From the NCBI RefSeq assembly GCF_009914755.1, contig NC_060940.1: DNA of 64,000 nt. The stretch is one strand, 5' to 3'. Source of the DNA: the human T2T-CHM13v2.0 reference genome, Homo sapiens. Positions 40,078-53,827 of this stretch are shown piece by piece. Made by a program: the position numbers and the translations under genes. The notes under the pieces are model-generated. The model was not told the origin of the DNA. It did not search any database and saw nothing but the letters and a program-made list of their open reading frames with translations. The stretch's first letter is position 1, and each line of letters begins with the position of its first letter.

Positions 40078-41094
40078 ATGGGGAAAAAACAGAGCAGAAA
40101 AATTGGAAACTCTGAAAAGCAGAGTGCCTCTCCTCCTCCAGAGGAATGCAGTTCCTCACCAGCAATGGAAAAAAGCTGGATGGAGAATGACTTTGATGAG
40201 CTGAGAGAAGAAGGCTTCAGATGATCAAACTACTCCAAGCTACAGGAGGAAATTCAAACCAAAGGCAAAGAAGTTGAAAACTTTGAAAAAAATTTAGACG
40301 AATGTATAAGTAGAATAACCAATACAGAGAAGTGCTTAAAGGAGCTGATGGAGCTGAAAGCAAAGGCCCGAGAAATACATGAAGAAGGCAGAAGCCTCAG
40401 GAGCTGATGCAATCAACTGGAAGAAAGGGTATCAGTGATGGAAGATCAAATGAATGAAATGAAGTGAGAAGGGAAGTTTAGAAAAAAAAGAATTAAAATA
40501 AATGAACAAAGCCTCCAAGAAATATGGGACTATGTGAAAAGACCAAATTTACGTCAGATTGGGGTACCTGAAAGTGACAGAGAGAATACAACCAAGTTAG
40601 AAGTGACTAAGCAGGATATTATCCAGGAGCAATTCCCCAATCTAGCAAGGCAGGCCAACATTAAAATTCAGGAAATACAGAGAATGCCACAAAGATACTC
40701 CTCGAGAAGAGCAACTCCAAGACACATAATTGTCAGATTCACCAAAGTTGAAATGAAGGAAAAAATGTTAAGAGCAGCCAGAGAGAAAAGTCTGGTTAGC
40801 CACAAAAGGAAGCCCATCAGACTAACAGCTGATCTCTCAGAAGAAAATCTACAAGCCAGAAGAGAGTGGGGGCCAATATTCAACATTCTTAAAGAAAAGA
40901 ATTTTCAACCCAGAATTTCATATCCAGCCAAACTAAGCTTCATAAGTGAAGGAGAAATCAAATCCTTTACAGACAAGCAAAGGCTGAGAGATTTTGTCAC
41001 CACCAGGCCTTCCCTAAAAGAGCTCCTGAAGGAAGCACTAAACAGGGAAAGGCACAACCAGTACCAGCCACTGCAAAATCATGCCAAAAGGTAA
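40078..41094 (+). pseudogene. L1 ORF1p, disrupted by in-frame stops
   Basis: ATG at 40078, 339 codons to TAA; first premature TGA at 40222-40224; RRATPRHIIVRF and YPAKLSF motifs. Confidence 0.93.
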
Positions 41095-41157
41095 AGACCA
41101 TCAAGATTTGGAAGAAACTGCATCAACTAACGAGGAAAATAACCAGCTGACATCATA

Positions 41158-44100
41158 ATGACAGGATCAAATTCACACATAACAATAGTAACCTTAAATG
41201 TAAATGGACTAAATGTTCCAAGTAAAAGACACAGACTGGCAAATTCGATAAAGAGTCAAGACCCATCATTGTGCTGTATTCAGGAAACCCATCTCACATG
41301 CAGAGACACAGGTAAGCTCAAAATAAAAGGATGGAGGAAGATCTACCAAGCAAATGGAAAACAAAAAAAGGCAGGGGTTGCAATCCTAGTCTCTGATAAG
41401 ACAGACTTTAAACCAACAAAGATCAAAAGAGACAAAGAAGGCCATTACATAATGGTAAAGGCATCCGTTCAACAAGAAGAGCTAACTATCCTAAATATAT
41501 ATGCACCCAGTACAGGAGCAACAAGATTCATAAAGCAAGTCCTTAGTTACCTACAAAGAGACTTAGACTCCCACACAATAATAATAGGAGACTTTAACAC
41601 CCCACTGTCAACATTAGACAGATCCACGAGACAGAAAGTTAACAAGGATACCCGGGAATTGAACTCAGTTCTGCACCAAGCAGACCTAATAGACATCTAC
41701 AGAACTCTCCACCCCAAATCAACAGAATATACATTCTTTTCAGCACCACACCACACCTATTCCAAAACTGACCACATAGTTGGAAGTAAAGCTCTCCTCA
41801 ACAAATGTAAAAGAACAGAAATTATAACAAACTGTCTCTGAGACCACAGTGCAATCTAACTAGAACTCAGGATTAAGAAATTCACTCAAAACCGCTCAAC
41901 TTCATGGAAACTGAACAACCTGCTCCTGAATGACTAATGGGTACATAACAAAATGAAGGCAGAAATAAAGATGTTCTTTGAAACCAAGGAGAACAAAGAC
42001 ACAACATACCAGAATCTCTGGGACACATTCAACGTGTGGGGAAAAGCAAGAGAGATCAGATTGTTACTGTGTCTGTGTAGAAAGAAGTAGACATAGGAGA
42101 CTCCATTTTGTTCTGTACTAAGAAAAATTCTTCTGCCTTGATATTCTGTTAATCTATAACCTTACCCCCAACCCCGTGCTCTCTGAAACATGTGCTGTGT
42201 CAAACTCAGGGTTAAATGGATTAAGGGCGGTGCAAGATGTGCTTTGTTAAACAGATGCTTGAAGGCAGCATGCTCCTTAAGAGTCATTACCACTCCCTAA
42301 TCTCAAGTACCCAGGGACACAAAAACTGCCGAAGGCTGCAGGGACCTCTGCCTAGGAAAGCCAGTATTGTCCAAGGTTTCTCCCGATGTGATAGTCTGAA
42401 ATATGGCCTCGTGGGAAGGGAAAGACCTGACCGTCCCCCAGCCCAACACCCGTAAAGGGTCTGTGCTGAGGAGGATTAGTATAAGAGGAAGGCATGCTTC
42501 TTGCAGTTGAGACAAGAGGAAGGCATCTGTCTCCTGCCCGTCCCTGGACAATGGAATGTCTCGGTGTAAAACCCGATTGTACGTTCTATCTACTGAGATA
42601 GGGAAAAACTGCCTTAGGGCTGGAGGTGGGACATGCGGGCAGCAATACTGCTTTGTAAAGCATTGAGATGTTTATGTGTATGCATATCTAAAAGCACAAC
42701 ACTTAATCATTTACCTTGTCTATGATGCAAAGACCTTCGTTCACGTGTTTGTCTGCTGAACCTCTCCACACAATTGTCTTGTGACCCTGACACATCCCCC
42801 TCTCGGGGAAACACCCACGAATGATCAATAAATACTAAGGGAACTCAGAGTCTTGCGGGATCCTCCATATGCTGAACGCTGGTTCCCCGGGTCCCCTTAT
42901 TTCTTTCTCTATACTTTGTCTCTGTGTCTTTTTCTTTCCCAAGTCTCTCGTTCCACCTTATGAGAAACACCCACAGGTGTGGAGGGGCAACCCACCCCTT
43001 CACAAAGCAGTGTCTAGAGGGAAATTTATAACACTAAATGCCCACAAGAGAAAGCAGGAAAGATCCACAATTGACACCCTAACATCACAATTAAAAGAAC
43101 TAGAAAAGCAAGAGCAAACACATTCAAAAGCTAGCAGAAGGCAAGAAATAACTAAGATCAGAGCAGAACTGAAGAAAATAGAGACACAAAAAACCCTTCA
43201 AAAAAGTAATGAATCCAGGAGCTCGTTTTTTGAAACAAACAACAAAATTGATAGACCGCTAGCAAGACTAATAAAGAAAAAAAGAGAGAAGAATCAAATA
43301 AATGCAATAAAAAATGATAAAGGGGATATCACCACCGATCCCACAGAAATACAAACTACCACCAGAGAATACTACAAACACCTCTACGCAAATAAACTAG
43401 GAAATCTAGAAGAAATGGATAAATTCCTTGACACATAAACTCTCCCAAGACTAATCCAGGAAGAAGTTGAATCTCTGAATAGACTAATAACAGGATCTGA
43501 AATTCTGGCAATAATCAATAGATTACCAACCAAAAAGACTCCAGGACCAGATGGATTCACAGCCAAATTCTACCAGAGGTAAAAGAAGGAACTGGTACCA
43601 TTCCTTCTGAAACTATCCAATCAATAGAAAAAGAAGGAATCCTCCCTAACTCATTTTATGAGGCCAGCATCATCCTGATACCAAAGCTGGGCACAACCAA
43701 AAAAATAGAATTTTAGACCAATATCCTAGATGAACATTGATTCAAAAATCCTCAATAAAATACTGGCAAACTGAATCCAGCAGCACATCAAAAAGCTTAT
43801 CCACCATGATCAAGTGGGCTTCATCCCTGGGATGCAAGGCTGGTTCAATATATGCAAATCAATAAATGTAATCCAGCATATAAACAAAACCAAAGACAAC
43901 AACCACATGATTATCTCAATAGGTGCAGAAAGGCCCTTTGACAAAATTCAACAGCCCTTCATGCTAAAAACTCTCAATAAATTAGGTATTGATGGGATGT
44001 ATTTCAAAATAATAAGAGCTATCTATGACAAACCCACAGCCAATATCATACTGAATGGGCAAAAACTGGAAGCATTCCTTTTGAAAACTGGCACAAGACA

Positions 44101-51900: not shown

Positions 51901-52748
51901 GTTGCGTCTTTGTTCTCATTGGTTTCAAAGAACATCTTTATTTCTCCCTTCACTTCTTTATGTACCCAGTAGTCATTCAGGAGCAGGTTGTTCAATTTCC
52001 ATGTAGTTGAGCGGTTTTGAGTGAATTTCTTAATCCTGAGTTCTAGTTTGATTGCACTGTGGTCTGAGAGACTGTTTGTTATAATTTCTGTTCTTTTACA
52101 TTTGTTGAGGAGAGCTTTACTTCCAACTATGTGGTCAATTTTGGAATAGGTGTGGTGTGGTCCTGAAAAGAATGTATATTCTGTTGATTTGGGGTGGAGA
52201 GTTCTGCAGATGTCTATTAGGTCTGCTTGGTGCAGAACTGAGTTCAGTTCCTGTATATCCTTGTTAACTTTCTGTCTCGTGGATCTGTCTAATGTTGACA
52301 GTGTGGTGTTAAAGTCTCCCATCATTATTGTGTGGGCATCTAAGTCTCTTTGTAGGTCTCTAAGGACTTGCTTTATGAATTTTGTTGCTCCTGTACTGGG
52401 TGCATATATATTTAGGATAGTTAGCTCTTCTTGTTGAACGGATGCCTTTACCATTATGTAATGGCCTTCTTTGTCTCTTTTGATCTTTGTTGGTTTAAAG
52501 TCTGTCTTATCAGAGACTAGGATTGCAACCCCTGCCTTTTTTTGTTTTCCATTTGCTTGGTAGATCTTCCTCCATCCTTTTATTTTGAGCTTACCTGTGT
52601 CTCTGCATGTGAGATGGGTTTCCTGAATACAGCACAATGATGGGTCTTGACTCTTTATCGAATTTGCCAGTCTGTGTCTTTTACTTGGAACATTTAGTCC
52701 ATTTACATTTAAGGTTACTATTGTTATGTGTGAATTTGATCCTGTCAT
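48927..52748 (-). pseudogene. L1 ORF2p, disrupted (endonuclease domain open for 356 aa)
   Basis: Fragments 51678-52748, 50604-51146 (LFADDM), 49524-50423, 48927-49178. Confidence 0.93.
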
Positions 52749-52811
52749 TATGATGTCAGCTGGTTATTTTCCTCGTTAGTTGATGCAGTTTCTTCCAAAT
52801 CTTGATGGTCT

Positions 52812-53827
52812 TTACCTTTTGGCATGATTTTGCAGTGGCTGGTACTGGTTTTGCCTTTCCCTGTTTAGTGCTTCCTTCAGGAGCTCTTTTAGGGAAGGCC
52901 TGGTGGTGACAAAATCTCTCAGCCTTTGCTTGTCTGTAAAGGATTTGATTTCTCCTTCACTTATGAAGCTTAGTTTGGCTGGATATGAAATTCTGGGTTG
53001 AAAATTCTTTTCTTTAAGAATGTTGAATATTGGCCCCCACTCTCTTCTGGCTTGTAGATTTTCTTCTGAGAGATCAGCTGTTAGTCTGATGGGCTTCCTT
53101 TTGTGGCTAACCAGACTTTTCTCTCTGGCTGCTCTTAACATTTTTTCCTTCATTTCAACTTTGGTGAATCTGACAATTATGTGTCTTGGAGTTGCTCTTC
53201 TCGAGGAGTATCTTTGTGGCATTCTCTGTATTTCCTGAATTTTAATGTTGGCCTGCCTTGCTAGATTGGGGAATTGCTCCTGGATAATATCCTGCTTAGT
53301 CACTTCCAACTTGGTTGTATTCTCTCTGTCACTTTCAGGTACCCCAATCTGACGTAAATTTGGTCTTTTCACATAGTCCCATATTTCTTGGAGGCTTTGT
53401 TAATTTCTTATTATTCTTTTTTCTCTAAACTTATCTTCTCACTCCATTTGATTCATTTGATCTTCCATCACAGATACTCTTTCTTCCAGTTGATTGAATT
53501 GGCTACTGAGGCTTGTGCATTCATCACGAAATCTTGTGCAGTGGTTTTCAGCTCCATCAGGTCCTTTAAGGACTTCTCTGCATTGGTTATTCTAGTTAGC
53601 CATTCGTCTAAATTTTTTTCAAGATTTTTAACTTCTTTGCCACGGATTAGAACTTCCCTCTTTAGCTCGGAGTAGTTTGATTGTCTGAAGCCTTCTTCTC
53701 TCAACTCATCAAAGTCATTCTGCATCCAGCTTTATTCCATTGTTGGTGAGGAGCTGCATTCTTTTGGAGGAGGAGTAGTGCTCTGATTTTTCGAGCTTCC
53801 AGTTTTTCTGTTCTGTTTTTTCCCCAG
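52812..53827 (-). pseudogene. L1 ORF1p, disrupted (ATG>CTG, frameshift)
   Basis: Minus strand reads AAGCTGGGGAAAAAA at the start position; fragments 53468-53725 and 52812-53372. Confidence 0.9.

What the first reader, a model, noticed from the sequence alone, without database searches (positions are those of the whole stretch)
40505..53401. 1,020-bp near-identical tract shared by two inverted L1s of different subfamilies (arm-to-arm gene conversion)
Seen: 40505-41524 is the reverse complement of 52382-53401 with no indels (paired coordinates sum to 93906) and only 2 mismatches (40599, 41055), ~99.8%. It shares unusual alleles (ORF1 LRQIG..ENTTKLEVTKQ..EQFP; ORF2 [20 protein letters not shown]). 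Immediately outside, the copies differ densely. Each element has concordant 5' and 3' subfamily marks (L1PA3/L1PA3, L1PA4/L1PA4) and the L1PA4 keeps both TSDs. Inference: two independent insertions were recently homogenised by gene conversion or by inversion and re-inversion, i.e. palindrome-like sequence exchange on an accidental L1 inverted repeat inside dead satellite.
Basis: partly seen in the sequence, partly recalled or inferred. Interest (0 to 1): 0.85.

Follow-up and report, generated by a model that had tools for sequence, protein, structure and literature searches.

The report
Gene conversion between two inverted L1s
Two dead L1 retrotransposons that landed separately and face each other in centromere-side satellite DNA of human chromosome 16 have had about 1 kb of one copied over the other, a known kind of repair event and a clean but ordinary example of it.

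Summary
Window 40505-41524 is the ungapped reverse complement of 52382-53401 with 2 mismatches in 1,020 bp. The rest of the two L1 arms differs at 385 of 4,206 aligned columns (9.15%), so P is about 1e-39.

The two arms share 44 substitutions in the tract that are absent from 68 other genomic L1 copies. About 1.6 would be expected for independent copies. A 39-mer carrying some of them occurs only at these two places in the 3.1-Gb genome.

Outside the tract each arm keeps its own L1 type on both sides, and the right L1 has its own target-site duplication. This is therefore non-crossover, non-allelic gene conversion between two independently inserted, inverted L1s that are about 91% alike.

The left, younger-type arm is the more likely donor, at about 70%. 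Type-diagnostic sites and the transition load favour it; the total substitution load does not.

A second, weaker signal of older or patchy exchange lies just 3' of the tract.

Conversion between neighbouring L1s is already in print (PMC5829575), so this is a new member of a known kind. An assembly or cell-line artefact could not be tested here and looks unlikely. Subfamily names (L1PA3, L1PA4) were not tested.

The parts
40505..41524 (+). Converted tract, copy in the left L1 (the more likely donor). It covers the ORF1 RBD-like and dsRBD-like domains, the inter-ORF spacer and the first part of the ORF2 endonuclease domain.
   Evidence: identity; Pfam PF02994, PF17490, PF03372 on open stretches 40468-41091 and 41143-41838; 44 shared private substitutions. 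Minimum tract is 40549-41523 (first and last shared private allele); maximum is 40505-41524.
52382..53401 (-). Converted tract, copy in the right L1 (the more likely acceptor). It corresponds to positions 1453-2472 of that 6,144-bp element.
   Evidence: the direction argument rests.
39965..46190 (+). Body of the left L1, from about element position 914 to the A-rich tail. It is the younger 'L' type and carries many stop codons.
   Evidence: alignment to the right L1; 22 of 24 5'-flank diagnostic sites L-type; 11 of 12 3'-end sites L-type; tail; stops.
39292..39962 (-). First ~670 nt of the left L1's 5'UTR, inverted relative to its body (the layout expected from twin priming).
   Evidence: 83% to right-L1 positions 182-786 on the opposite strand; closer to L-type copies at 88.1% than to R-type copies at 84.7%, i.e. 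the same type as the body.
42035..43002 (.). 968-bp solo LTR inserted into ORF2 of the left L1. It is flanked by a 5-bp direct repeat with one mismatch (42030-42034 and 43003-43007) and is absent from the right L1. My identification as an endogenous-retrovirus LTR of the HERV-K group is recalled, not tested.
   Evidence: 973-bp gap in the right arm; sequence, TG...CA ends, flanking repeat; 40 of 40 scored genome matches, the other 39 at 96-97% over about 968 bp; the right L1 is a full 6,144 bp without it.
46190..48709 (+). 2.5-kb spacer of monomeric alpha satellite between the two L1 3' ends, which lie tail to tail.
48710..54853 (-). Right L1, full length (6,144 bp), the older 'R' type, with many stop codons.
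   Evidence: 21 of 24 5'-flank sites R-type; 10 of 12 3'-end sites R-type; 5'UTR closer to R-type copies.
48697..48708 (.). Target-site duplication of the right L1, copy beside the T-rich tail. Its partner lies at 54854-54865; 11 of 12 bases match.
   Evidence: read directly from the sequence.
54854..54865 (.). Target-site duplication of the right L1, copy beside the 5' end.
41525..41900 (+). Zone just 3' of the tract with an excess of shared private alleles (41625, 41669, 41801, 41881) interleaved with arm-specific differences. This may be an older or a patchy exchange.
   Evidence: 4 observed, 0.25 expected from 1,120 independent reference pairs, P = 1.3e-4; three of the four alleles are in 0 of 68 references.
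40549..40663 (+). Cluster of 14 shared substitutions in 115 bp, 10 of them transversions. It accounts for most of the tract's excess load.

Best explanation
Two L1 retrotransposons inserted independently, tail to tail and 2.5 kb apart, into monomeric alpha satellite. One is a younger type on the + strand and the other an older type on the - strand. Long after both had decayed to roughly 91% mutual identity, a break in one arm was repaired using the other arm as template without a crossover. This is intrachromosomal, or sister-chromatid, non-allelic gene conversion, most simply by synthesis-dependent strand annealing. It overwrote about 1 kb (at least 975 bp, at most 1,020 bp).

The left arm was probably the donor and the right arm the acceptor. 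The 5' end of the tract falls where homology collapses: the end of the ORF1 coiled-coil region, where the two types are only about 85% alike.

Shown: the identity, the private shared alleles, the type concordance on both sides of the tract, and the independent origin of the right L1. Inferred: the repair pathway, the direction and the date. The event has no evident function, since both elements are dead.
For: Identity: 2 mismatches in 1,020 bp against 9.15% elsewhere, P about 1e-39.

Private shared alleles: the best other L1 in the genome is only 94% identical to the tract (40 of 5,209 candidates scored). In the tract the arms share 44 departures from the state held by at least 85% of 68 reference copies, against 1.6 expected from 1,120 independent reference pairs, P = 1e-46. 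In the 5' flank they share 0, against 1.0 expected. A 39-mer from the tract occurs only at the two arms, allowing up to 2 mismatches. In a maximum-likelihood tree of the tract with 38 references, the arms are sisters (100/100) on a stem of 0.059 with tips of 0.001.

Independent origin and no crossover: the left arm is L-type at 22 of 24 diagnostic sites 5' of the tract and at 11 of 12 at the 3' end. The right arm is R-type at 21 of 24 and 10 of 12. The right L1 has its own target-site duplication. The solo LTR is in one arm only.

Direction, left to right: the tract is L-like at 5 of 7 diagnostic sites. The right arm's flanks are L-like at 3 of 29 (Fisher P = 0.0026), and there is no conflict with the left arm's flanks (P = 0.24). 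The tract has 16 transitions, against 14.2 expected at the left-arm rate and 27.7 at the right-arm rate (P = 0.012). Its transition:transversion ratio of 16:29 resembles the left arm's flanks (22:26, P = 0.40) and not the right arm's (43:31, P = 0.023).

Precedent: conversion between L1PA3 LINEs, and inversion plus conversion between inverted L1PA7s, in long reads (PMC5829575, passages). Conversion among neighbouring Alus within about 10 kb (PMC8230782, passages).
Against: No second haplotype, ape orthologue or raw read could be examined. The pre-conversion state, the non-reciprocal nature of the exchange and the correctness of the assembly are therefore untested.

Direction is not settled. 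The tract's total private load (45 of 986 columns, 4.6%) fits the right-arm rate (47.7 expected) and exceeds the left-arm rate (30.9 expected, P = 0.010). I attribute this excess to one 115-bp substitution cluster, which is a post hoc step. Two of the 7 diagnostic sites in the tract are R-like. The tree does not resolve the L and R types within the tract.

The reference sets are small (12, 28 and 29 copies) and were chosen from only 40 scored hits per search. SetT was chosen by similarity to the tract itself.

About 91% identity is low for homologous repair, which usually prefers more similar partners (recalled).

The left L1 has no target-site duplication that I could find, so its independent insertion rests on type and structure only.
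Confidence: 0.87

Rival explanations
1. The same gene conversion occurred, but in the opposite direction: the older right L1 was the donor and the left L1 the acceptor.
For: The total private load of the tract (45 of 986 columns) matches the right arm's flanks (74 of 1,530; 47.7 expected) and exceeds the left arm's (48 of 1,530; 30.9 expected, P = 0.010). Two of 7 diagnostic sites in the tract are R-like. The stem of the tract pair (0.059) is longer than any reference tip.
Against: Five of 7 diagnostic sites are L-like, against 3 of 29 in the right arm's flanks (P = 0.0026). The transition count of 16 compares with 27.7 expected at the right-arm rate (P = 0.012), and the spectrum differs from the right arm's flanks (P = 0.023). 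The excess load is largely one cluster of 14 substitutions in 115 bp.
Confidence: 0.27
2. The identity is not in the germline. It is an assembly or polishing artefact of the reference, or a conversion that arose in the CHM13 cell line.
For: Nothing positive. It simply could not be tested, because no reads and no other haplotypes were available. The two mismatches could be unconverted sites, so the event has no minimum age.
Against: This is inference only. The tract (1 kb) and the tract-to-tract distance (10.9 kb) are shorter than the long reads used for such assemblies (recalled), so reads should anchor each copy in its diverged flanks. An artefact would have to rewrite roughly 90 bases in one arm with sharp edges. 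One derived change on each arm (40599 on the left, 41055 on the right) is what later mutation would give.
Confidence: 0.05
3. Inversion and re-inversion: two crossovers between the inverted L1s at different points produced the pattern without gene conversion.
For: Inverted L1 pairs do mediate polymorphic, recurrent inversions, for example an L1PA3 pair in PMC3961182 (table row and passages seen). The arms keep their own type on both sides of the tract, which is compatible with an even number of crossovers.
Against: Logic: two reciprocal crossovers exchange the segment between them, so the arms would still differ by about 9% there. They cannot make the arms identical or give both the same 44 private alleles.
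Confidence: 0.02
4. A third L1 copy converted both arms, or the arms share the tract by descent (an old inverted duplication, or one source element).
For: None found.
Against: The best other copy in the genome is 94% identical, and the 39-mer is found only at the two arms. The flanks are of different L1 types, with 0 shared private alleles in the 5' flank. The elements also differ in their ends and inserts: separate target-site duplication, LTR in one arm only, inverted 5'UTR in one arm only.
Confidence: 0.02

Closest known systems
Non-allelic (interlocus) gene conversion between neighbouring dispersed repeats: L1-L1 conversion seen in long reads (PMC5829575) and Alu-Alu conversion among neighbours within about 10 kb (PMC8230782)
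   Same: A tract of a few hundred bp to about 1 kb in one repeat copy is replaced by the sequence of a nearby paralogous copy. The elements were inserted independently. The tract-to-tract distance here is 10.9 kb, and no crossover is evident.
   Different: Here the partners belong to different L1 types, are only about 91% alike, and lie in pericentromeric alpha satellite. The event was detected within a single genome from shared private alleles, not by comparing haplotypes or species.
Arm-to-arm gene conversion in large palindromes, for example human Y palindrome P6 (PMC3723533, abstract seen in the listing)
   Same: Inverted repeats on one chromosome exchange sequence non-reciprocally, with multi-hundred-bp to kb tracts.
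   Different: Palindrome arms are duplicates kept more than 99.9% identical along their whole length by frequent conversion. Here the arms are unrelated insertions that are 9.15% divergent outside one 1-kb tract.
NAHR inversions mediated by inverted L1 pairs, for example HsInv0341 with L1PA3 arms (PMC3961182)
   Same: The substrate is the same: two roughly 6-kb L1s in inverted orientation a few kb apart.
   Different: That outcome is a crossover that flips the spacer and makes chimeric arms. Here both arms are non-chimeric outside the tract. The spacer's orientation state cannot be judged from one genome.
Interlocus gene conversion map of human segmental duplications (PMC10172114)
   Same: The process is the same, with a donor/acceptor logic.
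   Different: [quoted passage not shown] A pure L1 pair in satellite is therefore outside its scope. Its events average 6.26 kb and favour pairs of 98-99% identity.

Membership tests
Non-allelic gene conversion tract | A block of near-identity between paralogues, bounded on both sides by much higher divergence | tested here: met
   0.2% divergence inside the tract against 9.15% outside. The edges are sharp to within 45 bp on the 5' side and 2 bp on the 3' side.
Non-allelic gene conversion tract | The shared states inside the block are copy-specific (post-insertion) changes, not family-wide alleles | tested here: met
   44 shared departures against 1.6 expected; the 39-mer is unique to the two arms; the next best copy is 94% identical.
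Non-allelic gene conversion tract | The partners are of independent origin rather than one duplicated segment | tested here: met
   The arms are of different L1 types on both sides of the tract. The right L1 has its own target-site duplication. The LTR and the inverted 5'UTR are in one arm only. No target-site duplication was found for the left L1.
Non-allelic gene conversion tract | Non-reciprocal transfer relative to a known ancestral state (unconverted orthologue or haplotype) | not testable with these tools
   No other human haplotype or ape assembly is held. Direction was inferred indirectly.
Palindrome-type concerted evolution | Arms kept near-identical along their whole length by recurrent conversion | tested here: not met
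   385 of 4,206 columns differ outside the tract.
Palindrome-type concerted evolution | More than one exchange episode between the same arms | tested here: inconclusive
   4 shared private alleles 3' of the tract (0.25 expected, P = 1.3e-4); the left arm's R-like alleles are confined to 40447-41736 (5 of 14 sites there against 0 of 34 elsewhere; this partition is post hoc). A patchy single event is not excluded.
NAHR inversion (crossover) between inverted repeats | Arms chimeric, changing type across the exchange point | tested here: not met
   each arm is the same type 5' of the tract and at its 3' end.
Twin-primed L1 insertion (left element) | A 5' segment inverted and abutting the 3' segment, the two being consecutive parts of one L1 of one type | tested here: met
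   the inverted piece aligns to right-L1 positions 14-752 (182-786 of the query, which begins 27 bp before the element) and the body starts at about position 914. The piece is the same type as the body. The definition is taken from the abstract of PMC2837659 (listing) and from recall.
Twin-primed L1 insertion (left element) | Target-site duplication flanking the whole insertion | tested here: not met
   the 20 nt after the tail occur nowhere else in the window, allowing up to 3 mismatches; the satellite on the two sides is in opposite orientation.
L1PA3 / L1PA4 subfamily assignment | Match to the subfamily consensus diagnostic positions | not tested
   No repeat consensus library was available. 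I show only a younger type (best genomic hits 95%) and an older type (best hits 91%).

The most novel reading that the evidence does not exclude
The pair is not the product of a single accident. It is a site of repeated, possibly bidirectional and patchy, exchange between two unrelated L1s that are about 9% divergent. This would be a palindrome in the making inside pericentromeric satellite: at least one older episode around 41525-41900, left-arm R-like alleles at 40447-41736, and then the recent 1-kb event. It could still be polymorphic among humans and be coupled to flipping of the 2.5-kb spacer.
Probability: 0.2. Interest if true: 0.5.

Novelty: new member of a known kind. Interest (0 to 1): 0.3.

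Why it matters
It is a clear, internally controlled example showing that homologous repair can copy about 1 kb between dispersed repeats that are only about 91% alike and of different subfamilies.

Such events distort age estimates and subfamily calls for individual L1 copies. They lie outside current gene-conversion maps, which skip pure common repeats and satellites (PMC10172114). They also mark inverted L1 pairs that may mediate inversions (PMC3961182).

In itself the event is neutral, because both elements are dead, and the mechanism is textbook.

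Tried and rejected
Tree of the tract with 10 L-type and 28 R-type references. It confirmed that the arms are sisters, but it was a star and did not resolve donor type. The bootstrap had not settled.

Total-load dating of the donor. It gave the opposite answer to the diagnostic-site and transition tests, so I report both.

Search for a target-site duplication of the left L1. 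Only the query site itself matched.

Explaining the opposite satellite orientation around the left L1 by one inversion with the other end at about 28865. No arrangement I tried restores a simple ancestral structure, so it is left unexplained.

Third L1 fragment at 33639-35370. It is 93.5% identical to the left arm and 91.2% to the right arm, with no conversion signal.

Earlier-findings tool.

The L-type set is therefore only 12 copies, and two of them are truncated in the tract.

MAFFT timed out and was rerun with faster settings.

Literature calls were rejected for term format.

Literature. The phrase searches 'gene conversion between L1', 'L1 gene conversion' and 'gene conversion between LINE-1' found 0 occurrences in the 25 papers listed. 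The L1 precedent came and then. I found nothing in print on this particular locus, but I ran no search aimed at it.

Rejected on logic: inversion plus re-inversion as the sole cause; shared descent; a third-copy donor (see rivals).

Full report
**1. The observation**

The claim is exact. Window 40505-41524 equals the reverse complement of 52382-53401 over 1,020 bp without indels. The two mismatches are at 40599 (A on the left, G on the right) and 41055 (C on the left, A on the right). An independent repeat finder reports the enclosing inverted pair.

In a gapped alignment of the whole arms, identity is 99.5-100% in the tract. It is 85% in the 200 columns before the tract, 93.5% in the 200 after it, and 86-96.5% elsewhere within the L1 homology. 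Outside the tract 385 of 4,206 aligned columns differ (9.15%). The chance of 2 or fewer differences in 1,020 bp at that rate is 10^-38.8. The longest exact run elsewhere is 94 bp.

**2. What the region is**

The window is divergent monomeric alpha satellite (171-bp period, 68-80% matches). Its orientation switches at about 17639, at about 28865 and across the left L1.

*Right L1 (48710-54853).* It is a full-length, minus-strand L1 of 6,144 bp. It is flanked by a 12-bp direct repeat with one mismatch (48697-48708 and 54854-54865).

*Left L1 (39292-46190).* It is more complex.
- Its body (39965-46190, + strand) starts at about element position 914.
- Its first ~670 nt of 5'UTR (39292-39962) are inverted and abut the body. 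This is the layout of a twin-primed insertion (the term is as used in the abstract of PMC2837659).
- The inverted piece is of the same type as the body.
- The 973-bp 'gap' in the right arm is really an insertion in the left arm. It is a 968-bp dispersed repeat with TG...CA ends and a 5-bp flanking repeat. Thirty-nine other genomic copies of it were scored at 96-97%. I recognise it from memory as a solo endogenous-retrovirus LTR; no call named the family.

The two L1s lie tail to tail, 2.5 kb apart. Both are riddled with stop codons.

Pfam places the tract on the ORF1 RBD-like and dsRBD-like domains, the spacer and the first part of the ORF2 endonuclease domain. The tract's 5' edge sits at the end of the ORF1 trimerisation domain.

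**3. Are the shared alleles private?**

The window's own genome could be searched. The best other L1 is 94% identical to the tract (40 of 5,209 candidates scored).

I assembled three reference sets.
- setT: 28 copies nearest to the tract.
- setR: 29 copies nearest to the right arm's 5' flank.
- setL: 12 copies nearest to the left arm's 5' flank (two of them are truncated within the tract).

I counted 'departures', meaning sites where an arm differs from a state held by at least 85% of references.
- In the tract the arms share 44 departures (43, which required at least 85% agreement within each reference group separately).
- In the 5' flank they share 0, and in the 505 bp 3' of the tract they share 4.
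- Scaling from 1,120 independent reference pairs, the expected numbers are 1.6, 1.0 and 0.25 respectively (one of the two near-identical copies L033 and L034 was dropped).

A 39-mer from the tract occurs only at the two arms in 3.1 Gb, allowing up to 2 mismatches. A tree of the tract puts the arms together (100/100) on a stem of 0.059 with tips of 0.001.

**4. Independent elements, no crossover**

Between setL and setR there are 24 diagnostic columns in the 5' flank. The left arm has the L state at 22 of them and the right arm the R state at 21. At the 3' end I used 10 L-type and 10 R-type references fetched for this purpose. There the left arm is L at 11 of 12 sites and the right arm R at 10 of 12, with no cross-type calls.

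Each arm therefore keeps its type on both sides of the tract. A single crossover (inversion) would have made chimeras. Two crossovers would have swapped the segment rather than homogenised it. What remains is non-crossover gene conversion.

**5. Direction**

*For left to right.*
- At the 7 tract columns that separate setT from setR, the tract is L-like at 5 (3 of 5 using setL).
- Against the right arm's flanks (3 of 29 L-like) this gives P = 0.0026. Against the left arm's flanks (3 of 29 R-like) it gives P = 0.24.
- The tract has 16 transitions. The left-arm rate predicts 14.2 and the right-arm rate 27.7 (P = 0.012).
- The tract's transition:transversion ratio is 16:29. It is like the left arm's flanks (22:26) and unlike the right arm's (43:31, P = 0.023) or the references (1,176:806, P = 0.002).

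*Against.*
- The total load is 45 of 986 columns. The right-arm rate predicts 47.7 and the left-arm rate 30.9 (P = 0.010).
- The surplus consists of transversions and is concentrated in 14 substitutions within 115 bp at 40549-40663. Setting it aside is a post hoc choice.
- The tree is uninformative on type.

I put left to right at about 70%.

**6. Date**

One derived change sits on each arm. If both arose after the event, 2 differences in 2 x 1,020 bp give about 2 Myr at 0.5e-9 per site per year (range 0.24-7.1 Myr). This falls to 0.5 Myr at 2e-9 (the rates are recalled). On an internal clock, about 0.1% per arm compares with 3.1-4.8% private load per arm.

The two sites could equally be unconverted patches. 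There is therefore no lower bound on the age, and the event may even be polymorphic.

**7. A second signal**

Just 3' of the tract, four shared private alleles (41625, 41669, 41801, 41881) are interleaved with arm-specific differences. Three of them occur in 0 of 68 references. The expectation is 0.25, giving P = 1.3e-4. Pairwise divergence in this zone is about 5%, compared with 9% elsewhere.

The left arm's five R-like alleles all lie between 40447 and 41736: 5 of 14 diagnostic sites there, against 0 of 34 elsewhere. Fisher P = 0.0012, but the partition was chosen after seeing the data.

This suggests either older exchange or a patchy heteroduplex. I cannot tell which.

**8. Mechanism**

The most economical reading is a double-strand break in the acceptor arm, repaired from the other arm on the same chromatid or the sister by synthesis-dependent strand annealing. 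That route gives a non-crossover tract of about 1 kb.

The 5' end of the tract coincides with the drop to about 85% identity in the ORF1 coiled-coil region. This is as expected if strand exchange or heteroduplex extension is limited by mismatches. These steps are inferred.

**9. What is known**

Conversion between L1PA3 LINEs, and inversion with conversion between inverted L1PA7s, are described from long reads (PMC5829575, passages). Conversion among neighbouring Alus within about 10 kb is reviewed in PMC8230782 (passages). An inverted L1PA3 pair mediates a polymorphic inversion (PMC3961182). The large human map of interlocus conversion leaves out pairs made entirely of common repeats or satellites (PMC10172114, methods passage). 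The supplements of these papers were not opened.

The finding is therefore a new instance of a known process. It is notable mainly for the low identity of the partners, the pericentromeric setting, and the fact that one genome alone proves it.

**10. Limits**

- No reads, other haplotypes or ape genomes were available.
- Subfamily names were not tested.
- Reference sets are small and drawn from 40 scored hits per search.
- setT was selected on the tract itself.
- The ext region (43003-43997) was polarised with setT only.
- The region 44000-45537 was compared only pairwise.

Noticed in passing
window 39292-39962 and 39965-46190: The left L1 has its first ~670 nt of 5'UTR inverted against the body, which is the twin-priming layout, and the piece is the same L1 type as the body. 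About 150 nt of the element are missing between the piece and the body. No target-site duplication could be found.
   Followed up: partly
window ~17639, ~28865 and 39293/46190: The alpha-satellite monomers change strand three times: (-) 25-17638, (+) 17640-28851, (-) 28878-39293, then (+) from 46190 onward. Two switches are bare satellite-satellite junctions. The third coincides with the left L1, whose two flanks are therefore in opposite orientation. No single inversion I tried explains this.
   Followed up: partly
window 42030-43007: A 968-bp solo LTR with a 5-bp flanking repeat (one mismatch) is inserted in ORF2 of the left L1 only. The genome holds many copies at 96-97%. The family name (HERV-K group LTR) is recalled, not tested.
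   Followed up: partly
window 40505-41524 and left-arm flanks: Private substitutions of the tract are transversion-rich (16 transitions to 29 transversions), whereas the references have 1,176:806. The left arm's flanks lean the same way (22:26; 37:42 with the extra kb). A dense cluster (14 substitutions in 115 bp, including adjacent multi-base changes) lies at 40549-40663. The cause is unknown.
   Followed up: partly
window 33639-35370: A third L1 piece is present: a 1.7-kb 3' fragment on the minus strand inside alpha(-) satellite. It is 93.5% identical to the left arm and 91.2% to the right arm, with no sign of exchange with either.
   Followed up: yes
loci L033 and L034 (G000 C23, about 133 kb apart, opposite strands): Two R-type reference L1s on contig C23 are near-identical to each other in the tract region (tips of 0.001 in the tree). 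They presumably belong to an inverted segmental duplication.
   Followed up: no
loci L062 and L055: Some reference L1s are mosaics of the two types. L062 is L-type in the 5' flank but R-like through the tract region. L055 is R-type in the 5' flank but L-like at the tract sites. Either mixed lineages or other conversions exist genome-wide.
   Followed up: no
window 63175-63775: A 601-bp non-satellite insert lies near the right end of the window. It was not examined.
   Followed up: no
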